A stretch of DNA of 63,984 nt, the filler included, from Perkinsus olseni (Eukaryota), in assembly GCA_013115125.1 (NCBI GenBank). It is 15 parts of 15 records of this genome, joined end to end, with 100 filler letters (N's around TTAATTAATTAA, not from the genome) between each part and the next. Parts side by side here need not be neighbours in the genome. Positions count along the whole stretch, not along the records: positions 56,574 to 60,768 come from JABANN010001306.1; 14 more parts are not named here. One strand, given 5' to 3'. Made by a program: the position numbers and the translations under genes. The stretch's first letter is position 1. Each line of letters begins with the position of its first letter. The notes below the pieces were generated by a model that did not search any database, was not told the DNA's origin, and saw nothing but the letters and a program-made list of their open reading frames with translations. Positions 21,437-63,800 of this stretch are shown here, piece after piece.

Positions 21437-22091
21437 TGAGGTAGGATAGAGTTGAAGCTGAATTGGTTAATACGATGAGATAAACCGGGCGCCATTAATG
21501 ACGCCGACAAAGTTGTGCGCTCTTAGCCAGTTGCCAAGTCGCGTACGGTCTTCTCCAGTGCATGCCCAGGGAATGGAAATCCGGGTTTGAATCGACTAAT
21601 CTGTTTCAATCGGCTATTGCGTCCAATCTTGATCAAGGAGAGCATCTCAGAGAAACCTCCTGTCAAGCTGCTCCGTAATGTCGGATTGCAAATCTCCCGT
21701 GTCCATCATGCCCGTGCATGTATTTCTGCCCGATCCTCGTTGTGCGGAACCCTGTGCGATTCAACTTTTGACCAAGCGTGCTCAGTCGTTCAGGAGGTAT
21801 TAATCCGCCTACGNNNNNNNNNNNNNNNNNNNNNNNNNNNNNNNNNNNNNNNNNNNNTTAATTAATTAANNNNNNNNNNNNNNNNNNNNNNNNNNNNNNN
21901 NNNNNNNNNNNNNTTGCCGACGCGAAATTGGCGCAGTGGTAGGAGCGCTTGTTATCTAGTGGATCAACCGGGATCGATCCCAAAAGTAAGCGACTAGAAA
22001 TTGAAGTGCTAGAGTCTCTGGGCCCGGGAGATGCGCGCGCGGAGCCCGCGGGCAATCATTTAATCATTATTTTTGGGCGACGCATTGCCCA

Positions 22092-22330
22092 GCTGTACGA
22101 AAATTCCGAAAAGTACGAAAATTCGATGTACAAAGTAATACTGTACGAGTTTCAACTATACGAGTCGGACCTGTACGACTATTCACTGTACGTACTGGAA
22201 GTGTACCACTCGATACTGTATCAATTGTCAGTGTGCGAGTTATCAGTGTATAGCCCAAGACTGTACGTGTGGAAACTGTACGGATCAAGCTTGTACGAAT
22301 GCAATTTCCACGAGTTGTCGCTGTACTGAA
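22092..22330 (+). repeat. Degenerate 15-bp-period array with TGTACGA core
   Basis: About 16 units with a conserved core and a variable 6-7-nt remainder. Confidence 0.8.
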
Positions 22331-23017
22331 CGATCCTAGCCGGGTAAAACCCTCCTGCATCACCGCCGGTGATTCACCGGGGAGCTTCTGCCAGAAGTAC
22401 ATGATCATGAAGGACATGCTTCCATGCTGTCTCAATGCCGTGAATACACTGAGGCACCGGGACTTGCGTTCGTGATCGAATCCTTCCATTGCGAAGCCCG
22501 GGAGACCGTGCACCTTTGACCTCTCCCGCCACCTTTCCGGGTCCCGTCCCATTCGTTCGTATACATTCTGCCATTCCAGGTCCGCACTTGCCACCCGTGG
22601 ACGGCACTACTTGCTTTAATCTCACTTCTATCATCGACAGCTACTCGAAATTCTTCCTAGTGCGTCCTACTCAACACCCACCAGACTGAAAATGTAACCG
22701 GGCCCCAAATTTTGTCTACGTTTCTCTGTTTTGTATGATTATTTGTATGAGTATTTTTTCTGACAAAATACTGCATTAGAAAAAGTTGATTCACGTCTCA
22801 AGCCACCAATTCCCGCAGGCTTCTAACTCCTGCGTAGGACCGAACCAAGTCGTTCCCGGCCGACCGCTTGCCGTGGTGACAGCCGACGGCGTATGACGCT
22901 ATCGGCACTGTATAACTCGACAGCATACGACGCCGTCTGCACTGTACAGTCCTCGCTCTCCCGAGCTTTGGTCTTGTCTTCACCTGGCGGATGTTCACGA
23001 CTGAGGGCCACTGAAGA

Positions 23018-23101
23018 CTCGTACACGGAAAACTCGTACGCAAAATACTCGTACACATAATACTCGTACACAAAACACTCGTACACATAATGCTCGTACA
23101 C
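23018..23101 (-). repeat. 15-bp-period array (CTCGTACAC+N6, six units), inverted relative to 22092-22330
   Basis: Read directly; the same motif also occurs at 8786-8850. Confidence 0.85.
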
Positions 23102-24153
23102 CCTGCGAAAATTTTTTAGTCAAGTCGGGGAGCCGCTCCGCGACTTGCCTAAAAGATAGTGCGTAGACACCCCAATCCTGTCGTCTGTGACACCCCGATG
23201 CCGGGTTCTACAAATGGATTCAAGTGGGTCCGGTGGTCGATATTACATTTATATTCTCCTTCTTTCGGGTGAAGAAGTCCCCTTCGTGACAAATAGCTAT
23301 ATATTGTCTCCCTGACGAGCCCGGTATCATTCCAATCGTCGCGAGCTTCTTAGTCTCTTTCGTGGAGTTGCCAGTGCCGCACGAATTCTTCAACAACTAC
23401 TCCCTGCTCAATATCAGTCATGTTAGTCACTAGGTAAATGAAGTTGAAGCTTGTTATAGAGTGTGATGATGCTGCCTCCGTCCGACGGTGCGAGACCACA
23501 GCTTCTACGCTCAAGATGACCTCAGTCGAGACGGACGTCATTATTCGGTTGGTTGGCGCGCTTGGCACTCGACTTCACTTCATCAAGGCTTTGGTCCCCT
23601 ATGGGATTCGCCACTTGACGGGAATATCTAACACAAGGGCAGACGGGTTAAGCAGGGTGCTCGAAGCGCCCAATACTGGTTCATCAGCGACCATTCACTC
23701 CTTGTTTGGAGCCGTCATTGCGGAAGAGTTCACTTCCTCCAGAAAGCAGAAGAAGGGACTCTTCGAGGCGGCCGAGAAGATGCATGCCGAGGGCGAGCGC
23801 GATGCCGACACCGATTGCTGTTGTGGTGGGTGCCCTAGACCTGCCATCTTTAGGAACCCATGCTATTCATGGGGATGGTGTTCATCTGGTGCAAGAATGT
23901 CTCTCTTTCGCCAGCCCCGAAGGGCTCTTTGGTACAGGGATATGCTCGGTCTACGTCGAACACTTTTTTATCGAGTCTCTTGAGACGGGTGATGCCTTAC
24001 CGCCTGCCCTTGACCCAATCTCGGGGTTGAGGCTTCGGCAACACCTTGGAATGAAGGATTTGTGACGCCTCTGGCGGGAAGTGGCGCTTCAAGTTTGGCC
24101 TCTCAAGGACAGAAGAATCCGAATGCCATCGCCGCTAAGGTGTTCCTTCCAAA

Positions 24154-24693
24154 ATGGAGGATAGATTTCGGTTTCGGGAACATAACGAGATGGTCGGCAT
24201 TGTCTTCTATGAGGCGGGGCTTGGTACTCTAGATAGTCAGGGTAACTTCACTGCGACAGTACCTCAGACGATACTGGTAACCAAGTACCTACAGAGTCTC
24301 GAGATTGTTGCCGAGGTGTATAAGCGTGCGATGGCTGACCTACAGACCAAATACCGATGGAGTGAGATAAGCGATATCCTGAATCAGGCCTTTGGGGATC
24401 GAGTTGCTATGCGTACTGAAGTCGCGCGCCGACTCCGACACCTGAGGTTCCGAGGATTTCAGCATGTCGATGACTTCATCCATCAGTTTACCATCATCAC
24501 TAACATGTGGATGCCGATCTACTCGTCGGGGTTTAGGGAGTCGCGTTACCTTGTGGCTAGCTTCCTCGCCAAGCTACCGTCTGATACTCTGGAAGGGGTG
24601 GTCAATGGAATCTTGCGGGAGGTTCCCAAGGAGGGTGCTCCGATCGGAGAGGATTATGTTCGGCTCCGTAGTACGGCCCCTGCTCCGAAATGA
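24154..24693 (+). pseudogene. Retrotransposon gag fragment
   Basis: RWSEISDILNQAFG...LRHLRF...VDDFIHQF matches the retrotransposon gag pattern. Confidence 0.6.
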
Positions 24694-26259
24694 GCTCCTT
24701 TTGTTGATCTGTGCGATTCGATTAGGCATTTTCGGATACTAGTCATGAATCCACTTTAGTTGGTCCACTTTCCGAGTCTCATCGGAAATAGAACGGCAAG
24801 TGAAGGGGGCCTCGTATGCGACCTCATGGAGACCAATGAGAACCTTCCGCCATCGAGCACATGTACCATTTGTCACTATAATAGCCCTCCGCCGGTGGTC
24901 ACCGCTGATGTGCACAGCGCCTTTTGCATGCTACGGTTGTGCAGTTCTTTCCGAGCGTCTGCACAATATTTTTGCCGATACCCGGGAGACCCCAAGTCGT
25001 CCTCATGACCACCACAAATGTCTCCCCGCTTCGCGTTACATTACGGCGGCAGAGGGAAGTATCTATCTGATCGAGTATGTTTTGGATGTTTGTTTGGTCC
25101 CGAGTCGCTTGAATGCTCACTCAGACGACAGATATGGTCATTTCGCACTTCACCTATCTGCATTTGGTGTCGAGTGGCACACTTTGTTGATGATCTGTTG
25201 TTACATTTTGCGTTTGAAGACGCATGCAAAATTGTATTCTTGTTATCGGTATTATTATGCTCTCTATCCCTGTGTGGATTTGCAATCTCTAACCTGAAAT
25301 TTGCTATCCTAGTACACCAGTCGGTACACTCGCAGGTGCCGCCCTATCATACTTACGTTCGGGATTCCATGCCGGTCCTCGGAGTTCTGCTCTCGTACGA
25401 CCACAGGGGCTTGTGGTGGACTGTAACAGACGGTCGGGGCTCGAGAAGGCTAAACGATTGCTGAAAGCCGACAGTTGGTCAAGTCAAACAGTGTACCGCA
25501 TTGATGGCGCTCTCGGTGTTGATAAGACGGGCTTACATGCAACGTATCCGTGAACAGATGCTGGCCTATATTGATGAGGGTCTTGAACATCCAAGTCATC
25601 ACGACACCCCAATCCTGTCGTCTGCGACACCCCGATGCTCGGTCCAACAAATGGATTCAAGCGGGTCCGGTGGTCGATATTACATTTACATTCTCCTTCT
25701 TTCGGGTGAAGAAGTCCCCTTGGTGACACATAGCTAGATATTGTCTCCCTGACGAGTCCCGTATCCTTCCAATTGTCGCGAGCTATGAAGATGCCTGTGG
25801 ATACCTCCCGCTCGTGACATCTATGGATGAGAAGGGATCACACAACGCCACAGACCTAGAAACCCCAGAGGATGGTGCACACCTGGACAAAACTTGGTCG
25901 CTTCAATAAACACTAGTTTCTTGCCGACGCGAAATTGGCGCAGTGGTAGGAGCGCTTGTTATCTAGTGGATCAACCGGGATCGATCCCAAAAGTAAGCGA
26001 CTAGAAATTGAAGTGCTAGAGTCTCTGGGCCCGGGAGATGCGCGCGCGGAGCCCGCGGGCAATCATTTAATCATTATTTTTGGGCGACGCATTGCCCAGC
26101 TGTACGAAAATTCCGAAAAGTACGAAAATTCGATGTACAAAGTAATACTGTACGAGTTTNNNNNNNNNNNNNNNNNNNNNNNNNNNNNNNNNNNNNNNNN
26201 NNNTTAATTAATTAANNNNNNNNNNNNNNNNNNNNNNNNNNNNNNNNNNNNNNNNNNNN

Positions 26260-30603: not shown

Positions 30604-33600
30604 TTCTCTTATAGTGGTTCGTCTGGTCCGACTAGACCAACGACTGCTGCATCTTCGAGTGCTGCTACGCCGACTACTACCGCGCCAGCGAAGATGGGCT
30701 TGGCTATGTCTGCGATTGAGGAGACGACGCCGAAGCAAGGATCTAATGTCAGAGCTATTGTAGTGAACATTGTGGGGCAAGATGCATCCCCGATTCCTTG
30801 CGTGGCTGCCGTAGATTCATTGTGTGAGGTGTCTGTTCTTAACTCTCGTCTACTTTCGAGAATTGGACATGAACCTTCATCACTACCCCCGGTGAATCTT
30901 CAGGCGTTTGGTGGCTCGGTATGCGAGCTACGCCAATCTACTACACTCAACCTAGTATTAGGTGAGCGCAAGTGCAAGATAGATTTGTATGTTCATGATT
31001 TAGGGTGCAACATGGACATCATTATCGGCGCCAATCTACTATCATTATGGGGCTGCATTATCGATTGGTCCCAGAACATCATCATCTTTCCCGAAGGTGA
31101 GAGGTTCAACTTCCTTTCTTTGACCTCGGCTTATAAATTCTTAAGCGTAAAGCCTTTGAGTTTGGATCTGCCGGTTCCCGCAGATAGGCTTGATGACTAC
31201 CTCGGTGACCTATGCGATGAAGATCTAAGAAAGTTCCTGATCCTACGGTTAGAGGACTTCCAACTACCGCAACTCGATTTTGAGATAGAAGGTAGTGATT
31301 GTCCTTATCAATGTCATACGAGCTATGGGGTACATCCTCAGCTGCGTGAAGGTCTGGATGCTCTACTTCGGCGAATGATGGACTCACACCAACTGCGAGA
31401 AGTAGTATATCAACCTGATCGATTTATCTCACCTGCCTTTGCGAAAAGCAAAAACAGGATTGAGAATGGTGTTTTAGTGGTAAGACTCCTTGCCGATCTA
31501 CGACTGCTAAATGAGCGGGTGAAGGCACCGCCCCGTGATTGGGCCTTCGAAGCTCCATCTCTGGAGGAGTTCCTCGGAGGTATCCCTAGTGGTGATGGCT
31601 TCTATTCGGTTTTAGACATCAAGGACGCTTTTCATAGCGTCCAGTTGTCTCCGAGAGTGAAGAAGTACATGACCATCCGAGTGGGATCAAGGTTATTCGA
31701 ATATCAAGTAATGGCACAAGGACTATCCTTGTCGGCATTATATTTTAATGTCCATTTGACAGCATGTTTTAACCGGCTGTTCCATCAAGCCTGGAGACTA
31801 TGGTTATCAATATGGATCGATGATATTCTAATACATGGACAAACTCTACGGGTGACTCAGATTCGTGAGAGAATCATGAGAATTGCGGTTGATGTGCTAG
31901 AGAAGTCGGTATCGTCGAAATCATCTCCTGCGTCAGACTCTGCTGATTGTGTAGGTCTACACTTCGAGAAGGGTTACTACTGCCTCAGTACTGCATCTAT
32001 TGAGAAGCTCAAGCGAGTTCTGGATATTGAACCGCGCAACATCTCTGAGGTGAGACGCCTAATTGGAGTCATACAGTATTCGGCGACTGCTTTCCAGTTC
32101 GACCCTGGTCAGCAGAGTGGCTTCACGGAAGCATTGGCTCCAATATATGCGGTCACGACGGTCCAGAACAAGAAGTTCACATGGACTGATGAGGCTAAGC
32201 AAGGAGTACGCAGGTTGCAAGACCACCTCTTCAACTTGAAGTTGAAGCAATGTTCTATGAGTGATATCACTCGGGGAACGTGGGTCTGTATAGTGGATGC
32301 CAGTATAACTGGCTCCGGAGGCGCTTTGTTCGAGGTCAGTCCGTCGGTTCTTCCACAAGATATTACTATCGAGACTCTCCACGATAGCGAAGTGTGCTCT
32401 CTGGTGGCTATTACTAGTCATACCTTTACGTCTTCAGAACGTAAACTGCACATATTCGAGCAAGAAGGACTCTCTCTGCTAATGGCCTGGCGTCGCTGGG
32501 GGAAACTCTGGTTAACGACAAGTAGATCAAAGCCTCTGGGATCTATAAATTGTATACTGATGTCGGACTCGTCCACTGCTCTCTCTAGGTTTAAGAGCTA
32601 CACGGTGGTGGATGATCCTCTGAGTAATATTAAAGCTCGGAGATATTTGAGCTGGATATCGGAGCTTGAAGCATCAAAGTATGCCGGTATTGTGTATAAA
32701 CACATATCGGGAGAAATGAATAGCTTACCTGATATTCTCTCAAGGTTCCATGAACAGCTCGACCGGCAAGCTCAGGAGCGACTACTTAAACCTTCACAAG
32801 CTCTTGGCTATGCTTTGACGACTCCTACTGGTGAGATTTTACCTGACTCGCTGAGAGTGGTTCACTTGGCTTTTGACCGCGACCAGGTTGTCACGTTGGC
32901 CCAGCTGCAGCGACAGGATGAAAGCTTATACCAAGGAGTACGTGTGTGCGATATTATGAAGGTGATAGATGCTGATAATAGTAACGTGCCCGTTGACCTT
33001 CCGAGAATAGCGATTAATAAAATCCGTTCTTGGCTCGGACATTCTATGTGGTCTCTCGTCCATCCCAGTACCACAGGTATGGATGGGGGCAGGCAGCATC
33101 GACTACTCTACGTTCTCTCATCGTGCAGAACACTGTCACTTGAGGAGACGGATGTTAAACAACAACCACACCTGGTGGTAGTGCTATTACCTCGAGACTC
33201 TAGTGAGTCTTCTTTTCGACAGGAACTTCTGCGAGAGGCTCACGGACATGGTCATAATAGTGTGGCGGGAACTCAAAGTGAGTTACTGAGACTTTGTTGG
33301 TGGCCTGGTTGTCTAGTCGAGGTTAAGCGCTACATCAACTCATGTACTTGTAGGGAGAGTCTGGATCCTGTTCCGAGTTCTCGAAATTACGGTGTGATTC
33401 CAATGGCTTCACATCGCTTCGAAGCGATCGGATTCGATCATAAAGCTCTTCCAGAGTATGTTCATTCCACCTTTTCGGACGTACTGACGATTGTCGATCT
33501 CGCTTCAGGGTATACTGTCTATGAAGGGGTTCGCTCAGTGGGTACTGCCGAAACCGCGAGCGTGGTGCTGCGGAGGTGGGTTGGACGGTTCTCTTTGCCT

Positions 33601-34674
33601 GATCTTGTGATAACAGACCTTGCTCCGGGTTATGTTAGTAAGATGTTTGCTTTGATCAGCCAAATCATGGGTTGGAAGCACAAAACGGTTGGTGTTCATA
33701 ATGCTCAAGCAAATGGAGTTGTTGAACGGAAAAATGCAGTCCTTTCTCGCTTATTTAAAATAAGTAGGGGCTCCATTAATTCTGACGAAGATCTTCAACT
33801 GTGGCTTATGGTTGCTGAAATGACCGTTAATCAGGTTATGCGGCAAGGAGCTGGTCCGTCGGCAGAGTGCTCTACTGCTCATGAGAGGTTATATGGTGAG
33901 TCTCCACGTAGGGAGATTACCATGTGTCCCGAAGTAAATCTCGATGGTGTTAATGAGATGGGACGAGCTTGGATTCACCAACTCAAGGTGGTAGTGAACG
34001 CTTTGATTGAAGAGTACAATGTCTGGCGTTCAGAGCAAGCTCTATATAATATGCGCGATAAGCGTGCCGATCTGGCGAAACGCCGGAAGTTGGACTTGGC
34101 TTCTCGATCCGACATTGTAGAGGGAGCTCATGTTTTGTTCGAAGACCAAGAGAGAGAAGTAGTACGACTATACCGTAATCCTTTAGGGGATCCTACTATG
34201 GTTCTTCTTGATGATGGAAGCTCTGTTCAAGTATCAGCTGTTACTCTTATTAGGGATATCAGTCGCGAGCCTACCATGGTTAGCGCTAGTAGGCTGTCTA
34301 CCTATGATGAAGGCACCTTCGTTTTCTTCCGTATGAAGAGTGACCAGCCTGATGAACCAGAGTGGATGATACATGTAGGAAAGGTTGTCAACTACAATGA
34401 GGCCAAAGAGACCTATAAACTGCATGCCTACCGGGTAGGTGGCAGCAGTTCCCGACTGCGATGGTTACCACAGTGGGAAAGAGCACGCTCAGGAGGAGGA
34501 ATTGAGTATGTGAGAGCCCGGAAGTGTCCGAGCAATGCTTCTCCTTCCTTACTCGATATCAAGCGTGAAGATGTTCTGCTGGATTGTGATTTATCACCTT
34601 CAGGTAGTCTTGGGCCGAAAGCTCGCGACTGGCTCCATTATATGGGAGTGACTAAGCCGAATGCTTCGGACTGA
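30604..34674 (+). mobile_element. pol: Ty3/gypsy-type pol (PR-RT-RH-IN), intact ORF open to the contig edge; PPT near 34751-34761 and LTR start TG at 34765
   Basis: AAVDSL protease; DLRLLN, LDIKDAF and WIDD in RT; VDAS, EQE, SDS and HISGEMNSLPDILSR in RNase H; HHCC-like finger and D-D-E in integrase. Confidence 0.93.
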
Positions 34675-56115: not shown

Positions 56116-56703
56116 GCGTAGAGTACTTGTAGAGTACTTGTACTTGTAGAGTTGGCGGCACCATCGGGATGGGTGTCCGCGGAATCATGAGGCCACTCCG
56201 AGGGAAGTTGGTCTGGAGAAACATGGAACAAATTTGGCGGTTTCTGGCGGATTACCTGAGCGTGCCCTCCTGAACGGCGGCTGAGTAGGCACTTGAGAGC
56301 CGTTAGTCGGTGGTGGCTGCGTAGGCTGAAGTTGGGTTGGAGGAAATAAATCCAATTCTAGAAAGACGTAACCTGAAAGAGAGAAGCTTATAGCTAGTAG
56401 GGTGTGGGAGAGCAGTGAAATCGTGTATGACCTTCATCTGCTTGTCCTTCCAGAAGAGGCAGCTCGCGGTGCGNNNNNNNNNNNNNNNNNNNNNNNNNNN
56501 NNNNNNNNNNNNNNNNNTTAATTAATTAANNNNNNNNNNNNNNNNNNNNNNNNNNNNNNNNNNNNNNNNNNNNGCAGGGCTGCCTATACGGAGCTCCAGG
56601 ATATCACATTAGATATCCGAGGTCGGCTCTGGCAGGATACAAAACAAGTTGGCTTGTGGCATATTCTCGGCTCAGGGCGTTGTGGCGTCCAGGCCACTGC
56701 CCC

Positions 56704-56824
56704 TTTGTCGTCTACCTAGCCATGCTCGGTCAAGTTGTTGTTATCGCCCATCACGGGACGATAACCTCGCTATGCCAGCAAAAGGGTACTGATGAGTCTG
56801 TGTGGCAGCAGACGAAACGTCAGA
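56704..56824 (+). ncRNA. Hammerhead ribozyme (type III fold) in the 5' LTR
   Basis: CTGATGA 56789-56795; stem II GTCTG/CAGAC; GAAA 56814-56817; stem III TTTGTCGT/ACGTCAGA (one U-U mismatch); GTC triplet 56710-56712; stem I TACCT/GGGTA. Confidence 0.78.
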
Positions 56825-59800
56825 TTGGGTTGTCAGACGGTAAAAATAACAACAACTTGAATTACCTCTCAGGGTTTGAGTTGTGAGTGCCCTTCAATCG
56901 GCTCGGGAGTGAGGCAGTTTGTTGTCCCATGACCGTGTCGGAAGTTGGGGAGAATGAGATCAAGGTTCATGTGTCGGCCCCCGTACCCTTCCCGTCCAAA
57001 GGAAGTTTCGAGGACCTCCGTCGCATGCCGGACGATCTCACTCGTGTCCGACGTTGGGGAATCAGTCAGCAACAAACGGACCGTGCGACCGTGGCAGTCT
57101 GCTTGAGTCATCTGCAAGCGGACGTGTTACGCCACCTAGAGCTGTTCAAGCCCGAATTGGAGTATGCCACGTGGGAGATCTTCAAGTTGGAGTGTCTCCG
57201 TGCCACTAAGGTCCTGTTGGGAGGAGGACTACTGAATCATGAGTTCCTCCAGATGAAGATAAGAAAGAAGGAATTTGGGCTGAAGACCGAAACAGTCGCG
57301 GAGATTAGATTGAATTTCCCGGCTGGAGGGGCCAACTCGGGTAAGACGGCTAAGTTCCCTCTGAGATGTGGGGAGAACACCCTCTGGGTCGAGGCCTACG
57401 TAGTGGATGACTTGGTGAAGGGTAAAACGGTCTATATAGGGAGACCGGATTTGAACAGAAACCGAGTGTGTCTGGATTTGGCAACGGGACGCTTCCGGGT
57501 GAGAAACGCCTGGATGAAGCTGCCCGAGGGTACTCAGTGTTAGAGGGTTAGAGTGTGAACTCTTTGCTAGATGTAGTTTTCTTCGGGAATCGGTGTGGTG
57601 TTAGGGAGCTCGGGTGTCTGGGAAGGGAAGCCGTTCTCCGTCCTGTCGGTAAAGGATCGTAACTTGTTCGGTGACCGTTCTCGGGTACGGGTCGTCGGCG
57701 TGACGTTGGAGGCCCTCGCTGGCCAAAGGCGTGGCGTTCGTGGCTCCTTTGCCGAGACCCCCATGACAGCGCAAGAAGGGAGTGATCGGCTAACGCGTTG
57801 CCACCAAATCGGTGTCCGGGTTCAGTCGTGTGCTTGCAGATCCTGTCATGACATTCTCCGCTGAAGAACTCAACGAGCTGAAAGGGTTCCGTTGTCTGCA
57901 AGATGGACCCCTAGGGTGTGCCAAAGGGATTAAGTTCCGCGTGGACACGACCACAGAGAGTCCGGTCTTCTCCCGACCGTATCGGATGAATCCGATCGCG
58001 GCCAAGAACACCAATAAGTTGGTCAAAGAATTGTTGGATGAAGGGGTGATTGAGGAGACAACCAGCCCGTGGGCGTCCCCCGCGTTTGTGGTACCGAAAC
58101 GAGACGGGAGTGGCAGACTGGTGGTGGATTATAGGAAGTGGAACAAAATTACCGTCCCCGATCGCTACCGCTCTCCAACAATAGAGGAAATCTTGGGAGG
58201 AGTCTCGGAAGGGGCGCATTTCTCGGTGATTGACCTCCGAAAGGGGTTTCACCAAGTCGAAGTGGAGGAGGCGTCCCAGGGCAAACTCGCCTTCATGATC
58301 GGAAACAAGCAGTACACCTTCCGAAGAATGGCGATGGGCCCCCGGAACGCGCCGGCGTGTTTCCAACGAGCGGTGGATGCCGCATTCGGAACCTTATTGG
58401 CGCAGTGTTGTTTCGTCTACTTAGACGATATAATAATATATACCCCTAAAGGGAAGGGAAAGGCGGGGCATCTTGCGGATGTGAAACGGACTCTAAGGGG
58501 CTTTGGACCTAGCCGGGTTCACTACTCGCTTGGATAAGTGTAAGTTCGGACTTGACAGCCTGGACTACCTGGGACACCGGATAGAGCGGGGAGTCATCCG
58601 GCCGATGTTCTCCAATGTTGAGCGGATTATGCGGTCCAAAAGGCCGTGGAATCTGCAGTCGCTACGACGGTTCCTCGGAATGTGCGGGACCCACACGGGC
58701 GATTTGCCCGATGGATAGCGGCGCTGCAGCAGTTCGGGGGTATGACAGTGCAGTATCGCACTGGAGTGAGCAATGTGGCGGCCGACTACCTCAGTAGGGA
58801 CATTGAGGTCGAGTTTGCGCCAATCGAGACCCGGATTCGCACATTGGATGGGTTGAAGAAGGCCCAGGATGAGGACGGGGACTGTCAGGCTTGGAGATGT
58901 CAGGGTAAGTTCCCCAGCGGAAGCGGTCTGGAGCGCCAAACGGCGATCACAAGGGATCCTGGAACGGGAGTTATCACTCTTCACGGTAAAGCGATAGTCC
59001 CACCACTCTACCGAAAGGAAATTCTGGATGATCTCCATCGGTCCACCGGGCATGTTGGGATAAATAAGCTCTATGAGCTGTCTCGACGGGTATTCTTCTG
59101 GCCTGGTCAGAAGGAAGCTTGCCGAGAGTATGTGAATGGTTGTGAAGGGTGTGCCCGCACGAAACCCGCGACCCATCGCGCCGTGTTGCGACCTTATGAG
59201 AGCAAGGATCTCTTTGCGGATATGCAGGCCGATATCTGTGGGCCACTACCGCGCACTCAACGCGGGAACGAGTATTTACTCGTGATAGTGGATCAGGCGT
59301 CCAGGTTCCCCTGGGCTTATGCCCTGAAGGATACGAGCGCTGCGACCATCGTGGAACGATTAGGAGAGGTCTTTAGCTTCACTGGCGCACCGATGCGGTT
59401 AGGGATGGACCAGGCCCAGTATTTTACTGGGGCGTTAACAAGGAAGGTGATGGAGTTATATCAGACGGAGGTGGTGTCGGGGCCGCTCTATCGGCCACAA
59501 GCCCGAGGGCTCGTAGAAAGGACGATCGGCACTGTGAAGCGTAGGCTCGCCGCCAGTGTGAACGGGAGCGAAGATTGGGATACCTGTATAGACTGCGTTC
59601 TGGCTGGAATAAGGGCTGCAAAAAGTGAAAGTCTTGGGATGAGCCCCTTTGAGTACCTGACTGGGCGACACATGAGATTACCCTCTATGGTGGGAGTCGC
59701 CGAAGTCAAACCGATTCAGGATGACGCACGGGCTGCTGACATCAATCGCGCCGAGCGAATCCGTCAGGTTCTGGTGCGAAGTCGGCGAGTGGCTGAAGCC

Positions 59801-60183
59801 CATTCCCGCACTCGGAGTCTCCAGAACGTCCTTGGCACACGGAGTACCCTTGTTCCCCAGTTTAAGTCTGGAGACTTGGTGCTATTCAGCAAGGGGTTGA
59901 AGCCCCGAAGGAAGAGCGCGGTGGCCGGGTTGTTTATCGGGCCGTTAGAGATAGTAAAGAGTCTGAGCCCGTTTGTGTATAAGGTGAGAGGAGGAGGAGA
60001 ATCCTTCATCGCTCACGCAGACAATCTGAAGGCCTACCGTGGGAAAAAGCGGGTACTCCGGGATGAGGATGACGGGAATTCGCGGAAGAAACGGCGGAAC
60101 ATGGTGAGAAAGTTCGGAAAGGACGAGAACCAGTAGATCGTCTTTTCCCCGCTTGAGGAGTATATGGTTGATCCTCAGGTACG

Positions 60184-60313
60184 AGTCGCTCTCGTGGGTG
60201 AAGAAGACACGAGAAGTTCGTCTTCAGTTGTGGAAGACGAGGAGTCTAGTCGCTCTCGTGGGTGAAGAAGACACGAGAAGTTCGTCTTCAGTTGTGGAAG
60301 ACGAGGAGTCTAG
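60184..60313 (+). repeat. 64-bp exact tandem duplication in the element's 3' UTR
   Basis: Units start at 60184 and 60248. Confidence 0.92.
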
Positions 60314-60511
60314 GCCTAGCGGAGACCGCGGTGTTGATCATGATCATGAGTAGTTTCGTACGTACGCAAATCGAGTTGAGTTCACTCTAAAGGGAGTCCA
60401 GTGAGCGATGAGGCTGGGTATAACACCGAGCCTTGTAGCGAGCGGCAGGCTGAACTGAGAGGCACGGAGACGGCAAGTGCGGGGGAGTTGTGGCGTCCAG
60501 GCCACTGCCCC

Positions 60512-60632
60512 TTTGTCGTCTACCTAGCCATGCTCGGTCAAGTTGTTGTTATCGCCCATCACGGGACGATAACCTCGCTATGCCAGCAAAAGGGTACTGA
60601 TGAGTCTGTGTGGCAGCAGACGAAACGTCAGA
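60512..60632 (+). ncRNA. Hammerhead ribozyme, identical copy in the 3' LTR
   Basis: Same sequence as 56704-56824. Confidence 0.78.
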
Positions 60633-60868
60633 TTGGGTTGTCAGACGGTAAAGGCGTGTGAGCAGAGGCAGTTGCGCTAAATCTATACCATGCAGGTGCC
60701 TATTTGGCGGGCAGGGCTGCCTATACGGAGGTCGAGGATATCACATTATCGAGACAGCAAATTGGCGGNNNNNNNNNNNNNNNNNNNNNNNNNNNNNNNN
60801 NNNNNNNNNNNNTTAATTAATTAANNNNNNNNNNNNNNNNNNNNNNNNNNNNNNNNNNNNNNNNNNNN

Positions 60869-63800
60869 CAGCACACGTTCGTCTTTTTTTTGCGCAGCTT
60901 CTTCGAAAAGTTCGATTCAAGGTGCAAGCTGGTATTTAGCTCGTATGACAGGCCACACATCAAAAATGGCGAATCGTACTTGAACGTTGATCGGTCGCTC
61001 ACCTGTAGCATCCGTCTTCCTCCCGGGTCATGCCAAGCGAATTCGATTGACGAGCCTGTGGAAAATTTCCGACATGAAAGTCCTCGGGCATCCTACGGGA
61101 CTTCAGCTCCTCCCACGAGAGCTCCGACAGACCGACTTGACGGAACCAGATGGACTCGGCATACATATTGTGTAATTTGAAGTCCGGGGCAGTCGGAGGT
61201 CGAAGAGCTATGAAAATCGTAGCGTTGTCAGGGGTACCTTTCATGGCCAGCTTACTTTACTGCAGTACGCGTCTCCCTACTTGTGTAAATTTCGGTGATG
61301 ACAAACGCACTATTCGCCTTGCCACCAGAGCTACACCGTGACGAACTGTGCCGGATTTGCATGGTTCCTGAAACGGGAGTCGGTTGGCTCTGTGGAATTC
61401 CGAGTGATACCTCACCGAGATCAGAAATGCAAAAGGGGTAGCTCCAGGCTCCTAGAGACATTGATGCGTCCGAAGCACCGGCGTGCTTGGCCTTAGAGCG
61501 CTGCACGCTTGAAAGCATCGCCGACCGACCAAGGGCTGCTCGGGAGGGGGCTAGTCCAGCGGGCTCGACGCAACAGATATGCACCTTCGAGGGAACGTCT
61601 AGCCGTCAGGCGAGCACACGATTCCCTACCATAACTTTCTCATCACCTTTCGCTTGTTGTGGGTGGAATGACATGCGGCTCGACGGATGAATGCAAAAAT
61701 AATGAAGGCCCGACTCTTCTTGTATCTAGCATGGCTTGAGCCAACTTAGTGGCGTCAGTACCGCAACTCACCCAAATCTGCCGTCCCGTCAAGTTGACGA
61801 ATATGAACCTCGGGACGAGCTCGATCACGCGGGTTCTTATGAATGGAGGCTGGCTGAGCGTTATGTTCACGCCTAGCCAATGTGCCGGCTGTCGGTCGCC
61901 CCTCGGTATGATAACCTGCCCTGAGGCGGCGGCCTGAGGGAGATGACCATGGCGTGAGTATCACCCACTGGCGGTCTCACATCGACTCTGAACGGCTCGC
62001 TGAGCTCGTCACTCGACTGGACGGCCGGAAGGCATGCGGCGCGGACCCTCAGAGTCTTCCTCGGATCCCGGTTGGTACTCACGTCGCTCCTCGAGTGAGT
62101 CCAGAAGCGACCAACTTGCGAACGATTGGCAACCAGACCATCGCCGAAGCCAACCCGCCACAAATAGATAGGAAATTCCAGACGATTTATGACCCAGTAG
62201 GCGCTGTAGAGCGTCACGAATCTCGTGGAGGACTGCAGACGGATGCGTCCATCCAGTGATAGGGGCAGGGCCTCCGATGGGTCAAGAGCGCTAGCCACCT
62301 CTACACGGATGTACAAAGGAGCAGTGCCCTTTTCCCTTTGGGGCTTCAGCCTTAGCACAGAATCGCCCAATCTTGCTTTTGAGAAGGAAACGTCGACCGG
62401 GTCGCTCACGAAGTCACCAGCTTGGACGAGTATTTGCTGCATAAGGCGCGGGCACTTTGCATTCTCCCCCGGCTGGAGGTCATGACAAACCCATCCAGCG
62501 CTGCCATCCGGATCGATGCCAGGCGGAATCAGATGAACTGAGACGCTACGGCAAAGTCGGTTGCGGATCTGCAGGGCCCACTCTAGAAGAATCTCGAACG
62601 ACAAATCAGACGTTCTCGAATTCCGAGCTTGGCTGCTCACAGCGATGACAGTAGAGATGAGAGATAACTTCTGGGCTGTGCCGTCGATAGGTACATCGAA
62701 TTCGAATGACGAGCCGGGCATCNNNNNNNNNNNNNNNNNNNNNNNNNNNNNNNNNNNNNNNNNNNNNNNNNNNNNNNNNNNNNNNNNNNNNNNNNNNNNN
62801 NNNNNNNNNNNNNNNNNNNNNCAGTAGAGATGAGAGATAACTTCTGGGCTGTGCCGTCGATAGGTACATCGAATTCGAATGACGAGCCGGGCATCTGGCT
62901 ATAGTCCTTGATCTGTGTGGATTGGTACCGAGCCAAGCCCTCAAGAGTGGCCCTCGGGAGCAAAGGTGAAATGCATTGCTCCAACCTTCGCCAGGCTTCC
63001 TCGCTATCGGAGCCGTCCCATCGAGAGCCTTGAATAACAGGTTCGCATATCTTCCAGAGACCGAGTCCAATCGCAGCGAACTTCTTGTCACCGATAGCCC
63101 GAGGCTTCGAGCGGAAACACTGCTCAGGTAGCATCCAGTCGATCGGAATAGGAACGGCCTCGCCTGGCGCCAAGATCAGATGGGGTGGTACATATGTGCT
63201 CCGAACAAGCTCTGCTCTAGTCGAGCTTTTCGAGCCTCTCGGGTGATTGCTCGCTCCTCTTGTTTGCATGAAAGACCCACCCGAAGGAACATCGCCCCCT
63301 CCGGAATTTGTCCATGGTTCCCTCCGTGGTCCAACGATCACTAAAATGGCACTCGTGTCGTTGACAACAGTGTAGAGGGAAGATACGCAGACATCCCATA
63401 CTGATAGGGTGGGGTGCAATTCTACCCTGACCATGATCCGGACCGTGGTCCACTCTCGACGAGCTCGGTTGAGGATGCCACTCTCGTTCTCGACACTGCC
63501 TCTTGTCGGCGATGAATCCCTGATTACCCCCTTGGGGGTGCTTCGCAGAACGTTCGTCGCTCTAAATGCTTCGACGGGCACCCGGAAGCTGTGGACGCGG
63601 GAGCAAGACTGATTGAGGGACCCCAGCCGTTCGAGGAAGACTTTATGGCATCCCAGTTGAATACACAGGTCGAAGGGTAGAGTACTGCCGTCGCTCTCAT
63701 TAACCGGCAACGCAAATCCGTCGCGGCAGCCGTTCACGACCTCTAGCCAGTCATCAATGGTTTTCCCAGTCCTCGTCACTCCACGTTCCGGATCTTCCTT

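What the first reader, a model, noticed from the sequence alone, without database searches (positions are those of the whole stretch)
56730..56860. No tRNA PBS: a 15-nt tract perfectly complementary to the element's own LTR
Seen: one base after the 5' LTR lies ATAACAACAACTTGA (56846-56860), the exact reverse complement of TCAAGTTGTTGTTAT (56730-56744); there is no TGG-starting PBS. Known: Tf1/sushi-group elements self-prime from their own 5' RNA. Inference: this is self-priming, with the primer's 3' end oriented toward U5. The primer segment sits in hammerhead loop I and overlaps a competing hairpin (GTTATCG/CGATAAC), suggesting a cleavage-then-priming switch.
Basis: partly seen in the sequence, partly recalled or inferred. 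Interest (0 to 1): 0.8.

Follow-up and report, generated by a model that had tools for sequence, protein, structure and literature searches.

The report
Self-primed, ribozyme-bearing Perkinsus retrotransposon
A jumping gene in the shellfish parasite Perkinsus olseni seems to start copying itself from a piece of its own RNA rather than from a tRNA, and its terminal repeats also carry a self-cutting hammerhead ribozyme, a combination I did not find described.

Summary
ATAACAACAACTTGA (56846-56860) starts one base after the 5' LTR. It is the exact reverse complement of 56730-56744, a tract also present in the 3' LTR.

The host element is a real Ty3/gypsy-type LTR retrotransposon of Perkinsus olseni. 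It spans 56681-60652, has 164/164 identical LTRs, a GGCGT target duplication, an uninterrupted target copy seen in reads, a polypurine tract and RT/integrase ORFs. This copy is defective: its RNase H is deleted.

Each LTR holds a full type III hammerhead. It is the only descriptor hit in the window, and 1 of 200 shuffles gave any hit. Rfam scores it only 17.4 bits. The 22 bases after the predicted cut resemble the Perkinsus spliced leader.

Self-priming is the best reading, at about 0.55. The tract meets the published operational criterion.
- Tf1/sushi membership is not supported, because there is no chromodomain.
- The tract is not at the ribozyme-defined RNA 5' end.
- The cleavage-then-priming switch depends on how much RNA is folded.

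No relatives with LTRs could be fetched, so covariation remains untested. I rate it a new variant of known kinds.

The parts
56574..56680 (.). 5' flank. It is part of a roughly 160-nt tandem satellite into which the element is inserted. The last 5 bases (56676-56680, GGCGT) are the target-site duplication.
   Evidence: a 38-nt block at 56574-56611 recurs at 60711-60748; the joint 60710->56574 ('goes back') and the joint 56675->60653 with 5 shared letters. TSD GGCGT on both sides.
56681..56844 (+). 5' LTR of 164 nt, running TGTGG...GGTAAA. The T at 56680/60488 could also belong to the LTR, which would give a 165-nt LTR and a 4-bp TSD.
   Evidence: repeat 56675-56844 / 60483-60652. (164 of 164 identical to 60489-60652). 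(uninterrupted target joint).
56704..56824 (+). Type III hammerhead ribozyme motif. Helix III is 56704-11/56817-24. The predicted cut is after C56712 (GUC). Stem I is 56713-17/56784-88 with a long distal extension. The core CUGAUGA is at 56789-95, helix II at 56796-801/56808-13, and GAAA at 56814-17.
   Evidence: my descriptor hits only 56712 and 60520 in the window, and 1 of 200 shuffles had any hit; the unconstrained MFE of 56681-56830 is this three-way junction. Rfam Hammerhead_3 is the top hit but scores only 17.4 bits against a gathering score of 48.5, with E 0.25; no hit in the larger searches.
56713..56734 (+). Spliced-leader-like 22-mer that begins at the predicted ribozyme cut and forms the 5' strand of stem I.
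   Evidence: edit distance 4 to the P. marinus 22-nt SL. This is the best site in the window on both strands, and the next best is 6; a published P. marinus 'S-like' SL primer aligns to 56720-56744, with 0 of 2000 shuffles as good.
56730..56744 (+). Proposed self-primer tract TCAAGTTGTTGTTAT. It comprises the last 5 nt of the SL-like 22-mer plus 10 more nt.
56740..56765 (+). Local hairpin (GUUAUCGCCC / GGG-A-CGAUAAC) that overlaps the last 5 nt of the tract. It forms the tip of stem I.
   Evidence: Pair list; sequence.
56846..56860 (+). Primer-binding site ATAACAACAACTTGA, 1 nt after the LTR. It is a perfect complement of 56730-44 (duplex -18.3 kcal/mol).
56852..56884 (+). Competing local hairpin. 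PBS bases 56852-60 pair with 56876-84 (arms alone -6.7 kcal/mol).
   Evidence: present in the MFE of 5 of 5 larger contexts..
56929..57543 (+). First ORF of 204 codons from the ATG. It is gag-like by position only and has no Pfam family above threshold.
57812..58537 (+). Reverse transcriptase ORF (RVT_1, YLDD). The closest solved structure is Ty3 RT.
   Evidence: E 5e-21. (4ol8, E 1e-27).
58505..58684 (+). Deletion scar. About 137 residues (RT thumb and RNase H) that are present in relatives P0001 and P0002 are missing. The frame holds 4 stops here.
   Evidence: tblastn of P0001 and P0002. (RNase H families in P0002). (translation).
58646..60136 (+). Integrase ORF (H2C2 zinc domain, rve core, SH3-like C-terminus). 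No chromodomain.
   Evidence: 100% identical over 95% of the ORF to a partial Perkinsus olseni protein.
60184..60313 (+). Two exact 64-nt tandem copies in the 3' untranslated part.
60481..60487 (+). Polypurine tract GGGGGAG, one base before the 3' LTR.
60489..60652 (+). 3' LTR, identical to the 5' LTR. It carries its own hammerhead (cut after C60520) and a copy of the tract (60538-52). It is followed by the TSD GGCGT at 60653-57.

Best explanation
The two tracts are the primer-binding site and the self-primer of a young but defective Ty3/gypsy-type LTR retrotransposon of Perkinsus olseni (56681-60652).

Proposed mechanism:
1. The element RNA folds back so that 56730-44 in the LTR pairs with 56846-60.
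2. An RNase H-type cut after U56744 leaves a 3'-OH. The enzyme must come from an intact relative, because this copy has lost its RNase H.
3. Reverse transcriptase extends that end through A56845 into U5. The result is a strong-stop cDNA of about 101 nt (56845 back to 56745), which then transfers to the 3' LTR.
4. The hammerhead in the same LTR most likely trims upstream or read-through transcript so that the genomic RNA begins at U56713. That end is the start of a spliced-leader-like 22-mer.

What is shown: the tracts, their position and orientation, the element's anatomy, and the ribozyme motif. What is inferred: that the pairing primes, where the RNA starts and ends, that the ribozyme cleaves, and any ordering of cleavage and priming.

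The element works like Tf1 in priming. I do not file it in the Tf1/sushi clade.
For: - The 15-nt perfect complement starts 1 nt after the LTR. It has only 3 sites in the window, against a shuffle expectation of 0.05.
- 12 control tests on other repeat pairs gave complements of 4-8 nt.
- It meets the published operational criterion for self-priming.
- There is no TGG in the 30 nt after the LTR, and ARAGORN finds no tRNA gene in the window.
- The element is genuine and young. The LTRs are 164/164 identical, the TSD is GGCGT, a PPT is present, and an uninterrupted target copy is bridged by contigs.
- RT and integrase are of Ty3/gypsy type.
- Relatives with RNase H exist in the species and the genus, so trans supply is plausible.
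- My hammerhead descriptor hits only the two LTRs, and 1 of 200 shuffles gave any hit.
- The hammerhead fold is the unconstrained MFE of the nascent LTR RNA.
Against: - No family member with an LTR could be fetched, so nothing shows that the two tracts co-vary. In a young copy, perfect pairing is expected under self-priming, but it is also uninformative.
- The tract is not at the ribozyme-defined 5' end. It sits 17 nt in. A 32-nt primer with a 17-nt unpaired 5' tail would, on the standard model, leave a non-homologous tail on the plus-strand strong-stop DNA. That is my reasoning, not a test.
- This copy lacks RNase H.
- In 5 of 5 larger folding contexts the duplex is absent from the MFE, and enforcing it costs 3.8-7.2 kcal/mol. 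In those folds the PBS pairs locally with 56876-84.
- In the 351-nt context the duplex probability is 0.001.
- Host tRNAs and small RNAs could not be searched.
- Rfam does not call the hammerhead.
- The same ribozyme in the 3' LTR would cut R off the RNA unless polyadenylation or misfolding prevents it.
Confidence: 0.55

Rival explanations
1. Retrozyme-like cycle. Both LTR hammerheads cut, after C56712 and after C60520, and release a unit-length 3808-nt RNA with no terminal repeat. That RNA is ligated into a circle. The tract-PBS pairing then primes on the circle, or helps fold it, and reverse transcription runs round the circle to rebuild both LTRs.
For: - Identical complete hammerheads lie in both LTRs.
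- This is the model proposed for plant retrozymes, whose cleaved RNA also lacks R (PMC4918200 discussion passage).
- It removes the problem that the 3' ribozyme would cut off R.
- Retrozyme LTRs also adopt folds that hide the hammerhead (same paper), as seen here in larger contexts.
Against: - No circular junction can be told apart from an LTR with the data laid.
- Cutting a circle at 56744 puts the primer at the end of its own template, so a second template molecule would be needed. That is my reasoning.
- Retrozymes are small, non-coding and use a tRNA-Met PBS. This element is 3972 nt with RT and integrase ORFs and has no tRNA-type PBS.
Confidence: 0.15
2. The 15-bp pairing is a structural or regulatory helix and not a primer. 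It might sequester stem I to switch the 5' ribozyme off, or serve packaging or dimerisation. The true primer would then be an unidentified host RNA, or a small RNA made in trans from LTR or SL-like loci that carries the same tract.
For: - The pairing is topologically exclusive with stems I and III of the hammerhead (pair list). It replaces them in the MFE of 56681-56875.
- Only the 5' LTR has the complementary tract beside it.
- P. marinus holds more than 100 SL-like genomic copies without an intron (PMC3101222 section 16). One published primer to them aligns through the tract, so similar RNAs could exist in trans.
Against: - A regulatory helix has no reason to start exactly one base after the LTR, where every LTR element must have its PBS.
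- No other PBS candidate is visible.
- The authors of PMC3101222 detected no transcripts from the SL-like loci.
- The known P. marinus SL RNAs match the tract only over TCAAG.
Confidence: 0.15
3. Chance complementarity, or an assembly artefact at the LTR/internal junction.
For: The contig is a short draft contig, and it lies in a window that is stitched from many such contigs.
Against: - Shuffle expectation is 0.05 against 3 sites found.
- Controls gave 4-8 nt.
- A 3399-nt Logan contig bridges 56815-60213 with no differences, although that run may be the source of the window.
- Seven runs hold at least half of the sampled words.
Confidence: 0.02

Closest known systems
Tf1/Tf2 (S. pombe) and other predicted self-priming LTR retrotransposons (Tf1/sushi group, Tj1, Tcn1 clade, TAR copia)
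   Same: - No tRNA PBS.
- A stretch of the element's own 5' LTR RNA is complementary to the site just after the LTR.
- The orientation lets the primer be extended into U5.
   Different: [quoted passage not shown] Here it is 15 nt and lies 17 nt inside the ribozyme-defined RNA.
- No chromodomain.
- The host is an alveolate parasite.
- A hammerhead lies between primer and PBS.
- This copy has no RNase H.
Plant retrozymes (LTR elements with type III hammerheads)
   Same: - A type III hammerhead sits inside each LTR.
- PBS and PPT are next to the LTRs.
- The LTR can fold so that the ribozyme is hidden.
- Mobilisation is presumed to depend on Ty3/gypsy enzymes.
   Different: - Retrozymes are 1-1.5 kb and non-coding, with LTRs of 300-400 bp, a tRNA-Met PBS and 4-bp TSDs.
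- This element is 3972 nt with gag-like, RT and integrase ORFs and 164-nt LTRs. Its PBS is self-complementary and its TSD is 5 bp (or 4 bp).
Ribozymes at the 5' ends or in the repeats of other retroelements (hammerheads in Penelope-like pLTRs; HDV-like ribozymes of R2 and L1Tc)
   Same: A self-cleaving RNA in the terminal region could free the element RNA from an upstream co-transcript. For Penelope-like elements I saw only the search listing and abstract. The R2 and L1Tc examples are recalled and were not read here.
   Different: Those elements use target-primed reverse transcription and have no integrase, PBS or true LTRs. This one is an integrase-bearing LTR element.
LTR elements whose LTRs embed small-RNA-derived modules (Cassandra 5S, Helenus tRNA, Ajax 5S), and spliced-leader relics in dinoflagellate and Perkinsus genomes
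   Same: - A small-RNA-like sequence sits inside an LTR (abstract of PMC10886601).
- SL-like copies without an intron are known in P. marinus, and most start with T, as this one does.
   Different: - Here the module is SL-like, at edit distance 4 of 22.
- It is not followed by the conserved GGTA donor (passage; sequence).
- It doubles as ribozyme stem I and as part of the primer tract.

Membership tests
Ty3/gypsy (Metaviridae-type) LTR retrotransposon | Direct LTRs, target-site duplication, PPT before the 3' LTR, PBS after the 5' LTR | tested here: met
   LTRs 164/164 identical, GGCGT on both sides, an uninterrupted target bridged by contigs, and GGGGGAG at 60481-87.
Ty3/gypsy (Metaviridae-type) LTR retrotransposon | Pol order RT - RNase H - integrase, with Ty3-like RT and integrase | tested here: met
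   RT lies before integrase, and the best solved matches are Ty3 RT and Ty3 Gag-Pol. RNase H is deleted in this copy but lies between RT and integrase in relative P0002.
Self-priming LTR retrotransposons (mechanistic class) | At least 10 bp of complementarity between the 5' LTR and a site starting 0-5 bp after it, with no tRNA match | tested here: met
   15 bp starting 1 bp after the LTR. The criterion is from PMC6317226. The tRNA half of the criterion was tested only by the absence of TGG and of tRNA genes in the window.
Self-priming LTR retrotransposons (mechanistic class) | The primer is the very 5' end of the element RNA | tested here: inconclusive
   The RNA 5' end is unknown. If it is the predicted ribozyme cut (56713), the tract is at +18 to +32, unlike Tf1 at +1 to +11.
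Self-priming LTR retrotransposons (mechanistic class) | An element-encoded RNase H cuts the RNA duplex to make the primer | tested here: not met
   About 137 residues including RNase H are missing from this copy. Relatives have the domain. The cleavage itself cannot be tested with these tools.
Tf1/sushi clade (chromoviruses) | Chromodomain at the integrase C-terminus | tested here: not met
   no chromodomain family at E up to 10 in the last 161 residues; none of the 120 listed relatives lists a chromodomain family.
Tf1/sushi clade (chromoviruses) | RT/integrase phylogeny groups it with Tf1/sushi | not tested
   No Tf1/sushi reference sequences were available from any tool. The nearest relative found is a P. 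chesapeaki protein at 51% identity.
Hammerhead ribozyme, type III | Conserved core (CUGANGA ... GAAA, A15.1-U16.1, cleavage triplet GUH) with helices I, II and III, helix III being the open one | tested here: met
   GUC, helix I of 5 bp plus an extension, helix II of 6 bp, helix III of 7 of 8 pairs. It is the only hit in the window, and 1 of 200 shuffles gave any hit.
Hammerhead ribozyme, type III | Reaches Rfam RF00008 gathering score | tested here: not met
   17.4 bits against 48.5, E 0.25, in a 190-nt search. No hit. The model aligned the core but could not span the 76-nt stem I.
Hammerhead ribozyme, type III | Self-cleavage | not testable with these tools
   No raw reads could be laid. Contigs cannot show RNA ends.
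Retrozyme | Type III hammerhead in each LTR | tested here: met
Retrozyme | Small, non-coding, tRNA-Met PBS | tested here: not met
   The element is 3972 nt with RT and integrase ORFs and has no TGG-type PBS.
Retrozyme | 4-bp TSD; circular RNA intermediate | tested here: inconclusive
   The TSD reads as 5 bp (GGCGT), or as 4 bp if the T belongs to the LTR. Circular RNA cannot be tested with these tools.
Spliced-leader (SL) exon or SL RNA gene relic | Similarity to the Perkinsus SL and the conserved exon/intron GGTA junction | tested here: inconclusive
   Edit distance 4 of 22, the best site in the window. The junction reads AAG/TTGT, not GGTA (against the passage). The P. olseni SL itself was not available.

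The most novel reading that the evidence does not exclude
Perkinsus harbours a lineage of integrase-bearing LTR retrotransposons whose short LTR is a composite of three overlapping devices.
1. A type III hammerhead cuts exactly at the first base of a spliced-leader-like 22-mer. The genomic RNA therefore gets a defined, leader-like 5' end without a conventional promoter-defined start, and without being trans-spliced (trans-splicing would delete R and the PBS).
2. The end of that leader plus 10 more bases is the self-primer.
3. The nascent RNA first folds as a ribozyme and later refolds onto the PBS.

The element would thus be independent of both host start sites and host tRNAs. It would be a coding counterpart of the non-coding plant retrozymes.
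Probability: 0.2. Interest if true: 0.85.

Novelty: new variant of a known kind. Interest (0 to 1): 0.62.

Why it matters
Self-priming and LTR-borne hammerheads are each known, but in separate worlds. Self-priming belongs to Tf1/sushi-type and some plant elements. LTR hammerheads belong to non-coding plant retrozymes. An LTR element with RT and integrase genes that carries both, in an alveolate that trans-splices its mRNAs, would link the two.

It would also give a concrete case for asking two questions: how a retroelement fixes the ends of its genomic RNA in an organism where mRNA 5' ends are made by trans-splicing, and whether retrozyme-like elements have coding relatives.

None of the searches that combined hammerhead, LTR/gypsy, retrozyme and Perkinsus or protist terms showed such an element among the titles and abstracts listed. 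One search returned only two papers, both about sharks. That covers only the held open-access library and only the listed rows. Supplements were not available.

Tried and rejected
- Whole genome. None is held for this window, so host tRNAs, small RNAs and other copies could not be searched.
- Relatives with LTRs.
  - Integrase protein against viral contigs: 0 relatives.
  - Hammerhead-core pattern in viral contigs: 3 hits, all with unrelated flanks that I read as phage-type hammerheads.
  - SL-plus-hammerhead pattern in metagenome contigs: 115 loci with 117 matches. 0 of 117 had a full type III descriptor at the matched core. 7 carried a dinoflagellate-type SL 3' part (part of the print-out was cut).
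  - LTR-specific pattern in genome contigs: 0 hits.
  - P0001 protein in genome contigs: 2 distant loci at 30-34% identity. Neither had LTR pairs around the match or any hammerhead.
- Rfam: no hammerhead in the 4.2-kb or whole-window searches.
- Reads.
  - No variant letters or indels were listed, so there is no within-family variation to test for compensation.
  - Runs X7, X8 and X9 had no contig over the LTR/PBS (56714-56853). A hole proves nothing.
  - The joint 56675->60653 cannot be called an empty allele, because the flanks are a multicopy satellite. It may be another repeat unit.
  - Contig depths cannot rank parts of the element.
- Folding as proof of a switch was rejected, because the result changes with the window folded.
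- A type I reading of the hammerhead (cut at GUA 56840-42, with the 15-bp helix as stem I) was rejected. The bases next to the core do not pair (read).
- The idea that the known SL RNA is the primer was rejected. Only TCAAG matches.
- The original Tf1 papers are not held, so I relied on a review passage.
Full report
**What the window is.** The window is a chain of draft contigs of about 4.2 kb, joined by N44-TTAATTAATTAA-N44 spacers. The finding lies in the contig 56574-60768. Its integrase ORF is 100% identical, over 95% of its length, to a partial protein that its source names Perkinsus olseni. No whole genome is held for this window.

**The observation.** ATAACAACAACTTGA at 56846-60 is the exact reverse complement of 56730-44, and also of the same tract in the second repeat at 60538-52.
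- With up to two mismatches allowed, these are the only 3 sites in the window. The shuffle expectation is 0.05.
- The pairing is exactly 15 bp, with a duplex energy of -18.3 kcal/mol.
- It starts one base after the repeat ends.
- For 6 other direct-repeat pairs of the window, tested in both orientations, the longest such complement is 4-8 nt.

**The element.** The repeats are the LTRs of a retrotransposon at 56681-60652, 3972 nt long.
- With the boundaries below, the LTRs are 164 of 164 identical.
- Contigs of two runs join 56675 directly to 60653 with 5 shared letters. This gives an uninterrupted copy of the target and a GGCGT duplication (56676-80 = 60653-57).
- Because a T precedes both LTRs, a 4-bp duplication with 165-nt LTRs fits equally well.
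- The flanks are a satellite of about 160 nt. A contig runs from 60710 back to 56574, and 38 nt are shared between the flanks. The uninterrupted copy may therefore be another repeat unit and not an empty allele. I claim youth only from the identical LTRs and the intact duplication.
- A polypurine run GGGGGAG ends one base before the 3' LTR.
- The LTR begins with TG but ends in AAA, not CA.

**Coding capacity.**
- The first ORF is 204 codons and is gag-like by position only, with no Pfam family.
- An RVT_1 reverse transcriptase follows. Its closest solved relative is Ty3 RT.
- The integrase has H2C2 and rve domains.
- Between RT and integrase, about 137 residues that relatives P0001 and P0002 possess are missing, including their RNase H families. 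They are replaced by a stretch with 4 in-frame stops.

This copy is thus non-autonomous. Relatives with RNase H exist in P. olseni, and a 51% identical protein exists in P. chesapeaki.

**The hammerhead.** Each LTR contains CUGAUGA, a 6-bp helix II and GAAA. Helix III has 7 of 8 pairs, the cleavage triplet is GUC (cut after C56712 / C60520), and a 5-bp base of helix I continues into a long irregular stem.
- My type III descriptor finds only these two sites in the window. 1 of 200 composition-preserving shuffles gave any hit.
- The unconstrained minimum-energy fold of 56681-56830 is exactly this three-way junction.
- Rfam does not call it. There was nothing in two larger searches. A 190-nt search gave 17.4 bits against a threshold of 48.5. 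That alignment caught the core but not the 76-nt stem I.

I take the motif as real. Cleavage itself is untested.

**The leader-like 22-mer.** The 22 bases that follow the predicted cut (56713-34) are the best match in the whole window to the 22-nt P. marinus spliced leader. The leader sequence was taken from PMC9399869. The edit distance is 4, and the next best site scores 6.
- A published primer to P. marinus 'SL-like' genomic copies aligns to 56720-44, through the end of the tract. 0 of 2000 shuffles did as well.
- Those copies number more than 100, have no intron, and 'most started with T' (PMC3101222 section 16). This one also starts with T.
- The conserved GGTA exon/intron junction is absent.

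The resemblance is suggestive, not proven. The tract consists of the last 5 nt of this 22-mer plus 10 more.

**Is it self-priming?**

For:
- The site sits where every LTR element has its PBS.
- No tRNA-type PBS is visible.
- The orientation lets a 3' end at U56744 be extended through A56845 into U5.
- The published survey rule is met: at least 10 bp starting 0-5 bp after the LTR.

Against or open:
[quoted passage not shown] Here the tract starts 17 nt after the ribozyme cut. By my reasoning, a 32-nt primer with a 5' tail should hinder the second strand transfer. So either the RNA starts at 56730 or the tail is removed.
- RNase H must come from another copy.
- The 3' LTR ribozyme would remove R unless the RNA ends before the catalytic core or folds otherwise.
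- No covariation test was possible.

**The 'switch'.** The 15-bp helix crosses stems I and III, so the two folds exclude each other as nested structures.
- For 56681-56875 the duplex fold wins: -63.4 against -57.5 kcal/mol with the hammerhead enforced.
- In 5 of 5 larger windows the duplex is absent from the MFE, and forcing it costs 3.8-7.2 kcal/mol. In those folds the PBS pairs locally with 56876-84.
- The duplex probability is 0.63 or 0.82 in short contexts and 0.001 in a 351-nt context.
- In the 3' LTR context the hammerhead is not the MFE either.

Sequential folding is possible, but these computations do not show it.

**Search for relatives.** Five scans of public collections gave no related LTR. 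Contigs of four runs showed no variant letters over the stretch.

**Comparison with known systems.**
- In mechanism, the closest match for priming is the Tf1-type self-primer.
- In LTR content, the closest match is the plant retrozyme. Retrozymes are non-coding and tRNA-primed.
- Membership in Tf1/sushi is not supported, because no chromodomain was found.
- The literature searches I ran listed no coding LTR element with a hammerhead, and nothing linking Perkinsus to hammerhead ribozymes. I saw listings and abstracts only. Supplements are closed.

**Verdict.** Self-priming is the best explanation, at about 0.55. Tf1/sushi affiliation and the switch are unproven. The combination of a self-complementary PBS, an LTR hammerhead and a leader-like 5' segment in an integrase-bearing element is a new variant of known kinds.

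Noticed in passing
window 56912-57545: In three runs of guessed-RNA or unknown kind, contigs over the first ORF carry far higher contig depth than contigs over the rest of the element: 399 against 1.5-10 in X7, 76 against about 1-4 in X8, and 5-8 against 0.6-2 in X9. The tool warns that depth cannot rank parts of a gene. Contigs of X8 and X9, from two different studies, both stop exactly at 56912. This fits a trans-splice acceptor AG at 56912-13, because the leader ends in ..CAAG and so shares AG with the genome there. With that acceptor the 5' UTR before the ATG at 56929 would be 15 nt. This is a weak hint only.
   Followed up: partly
window 56574-56680 and 60653-60768: The element sits inside a tandem satellite of about 160 nt. 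The satellite's contigs have 2-5 times the depth of the element in the DNA run.
   Followed up: partly
window 56841-56844 / 60649-60652: The LTR starts with the canonical TG but ends in ...GGTAAA and not CA. One extra A (56845) lies between the LTR and the PBS.
   Followed up: no
window 21914-26159: This whole contig begins and ends with the same 239 nt at 100% identity, spaced 4007 nt apart. It may be a circular or tandem unit, or an LTR pair cut by the assembler. No self-complementary site follows the repeat; the longest complement is 5-7 nt.
   Followed up: partly
window 31483-33909: A second, distant Ty3/gypsy-like fragment, with RT-like and integrase-like tblastn matches at 26-27% identity to P0003 and P0004, lies on another contig.
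   Followed up: no
window 60184-60313: Two exact 64-nt tandem copies lie between the integrase stop and the PPT.
   Followed up: no
window 62649-62895: A 99-N gap (62723-62821) is flanked by the same 74 nt on both sides. This is probably a scaffolding artefact.
   Followed up: no
window 56720-56744: The published P. marinus 'S-like' SL copies share with this LTR both the leader 3' half and a following TGTTGTAT-like stretch that real SL RNAs lack. They may be LTRs, or relics, of related elements.
   Followed up: partly
L082 2791-2920: One chance hit of the metagenome pattern contains what looks like a complete, compact hammerhead of another type with unrelated flanks. My type III descriptor did not call it.
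   Followed up: no
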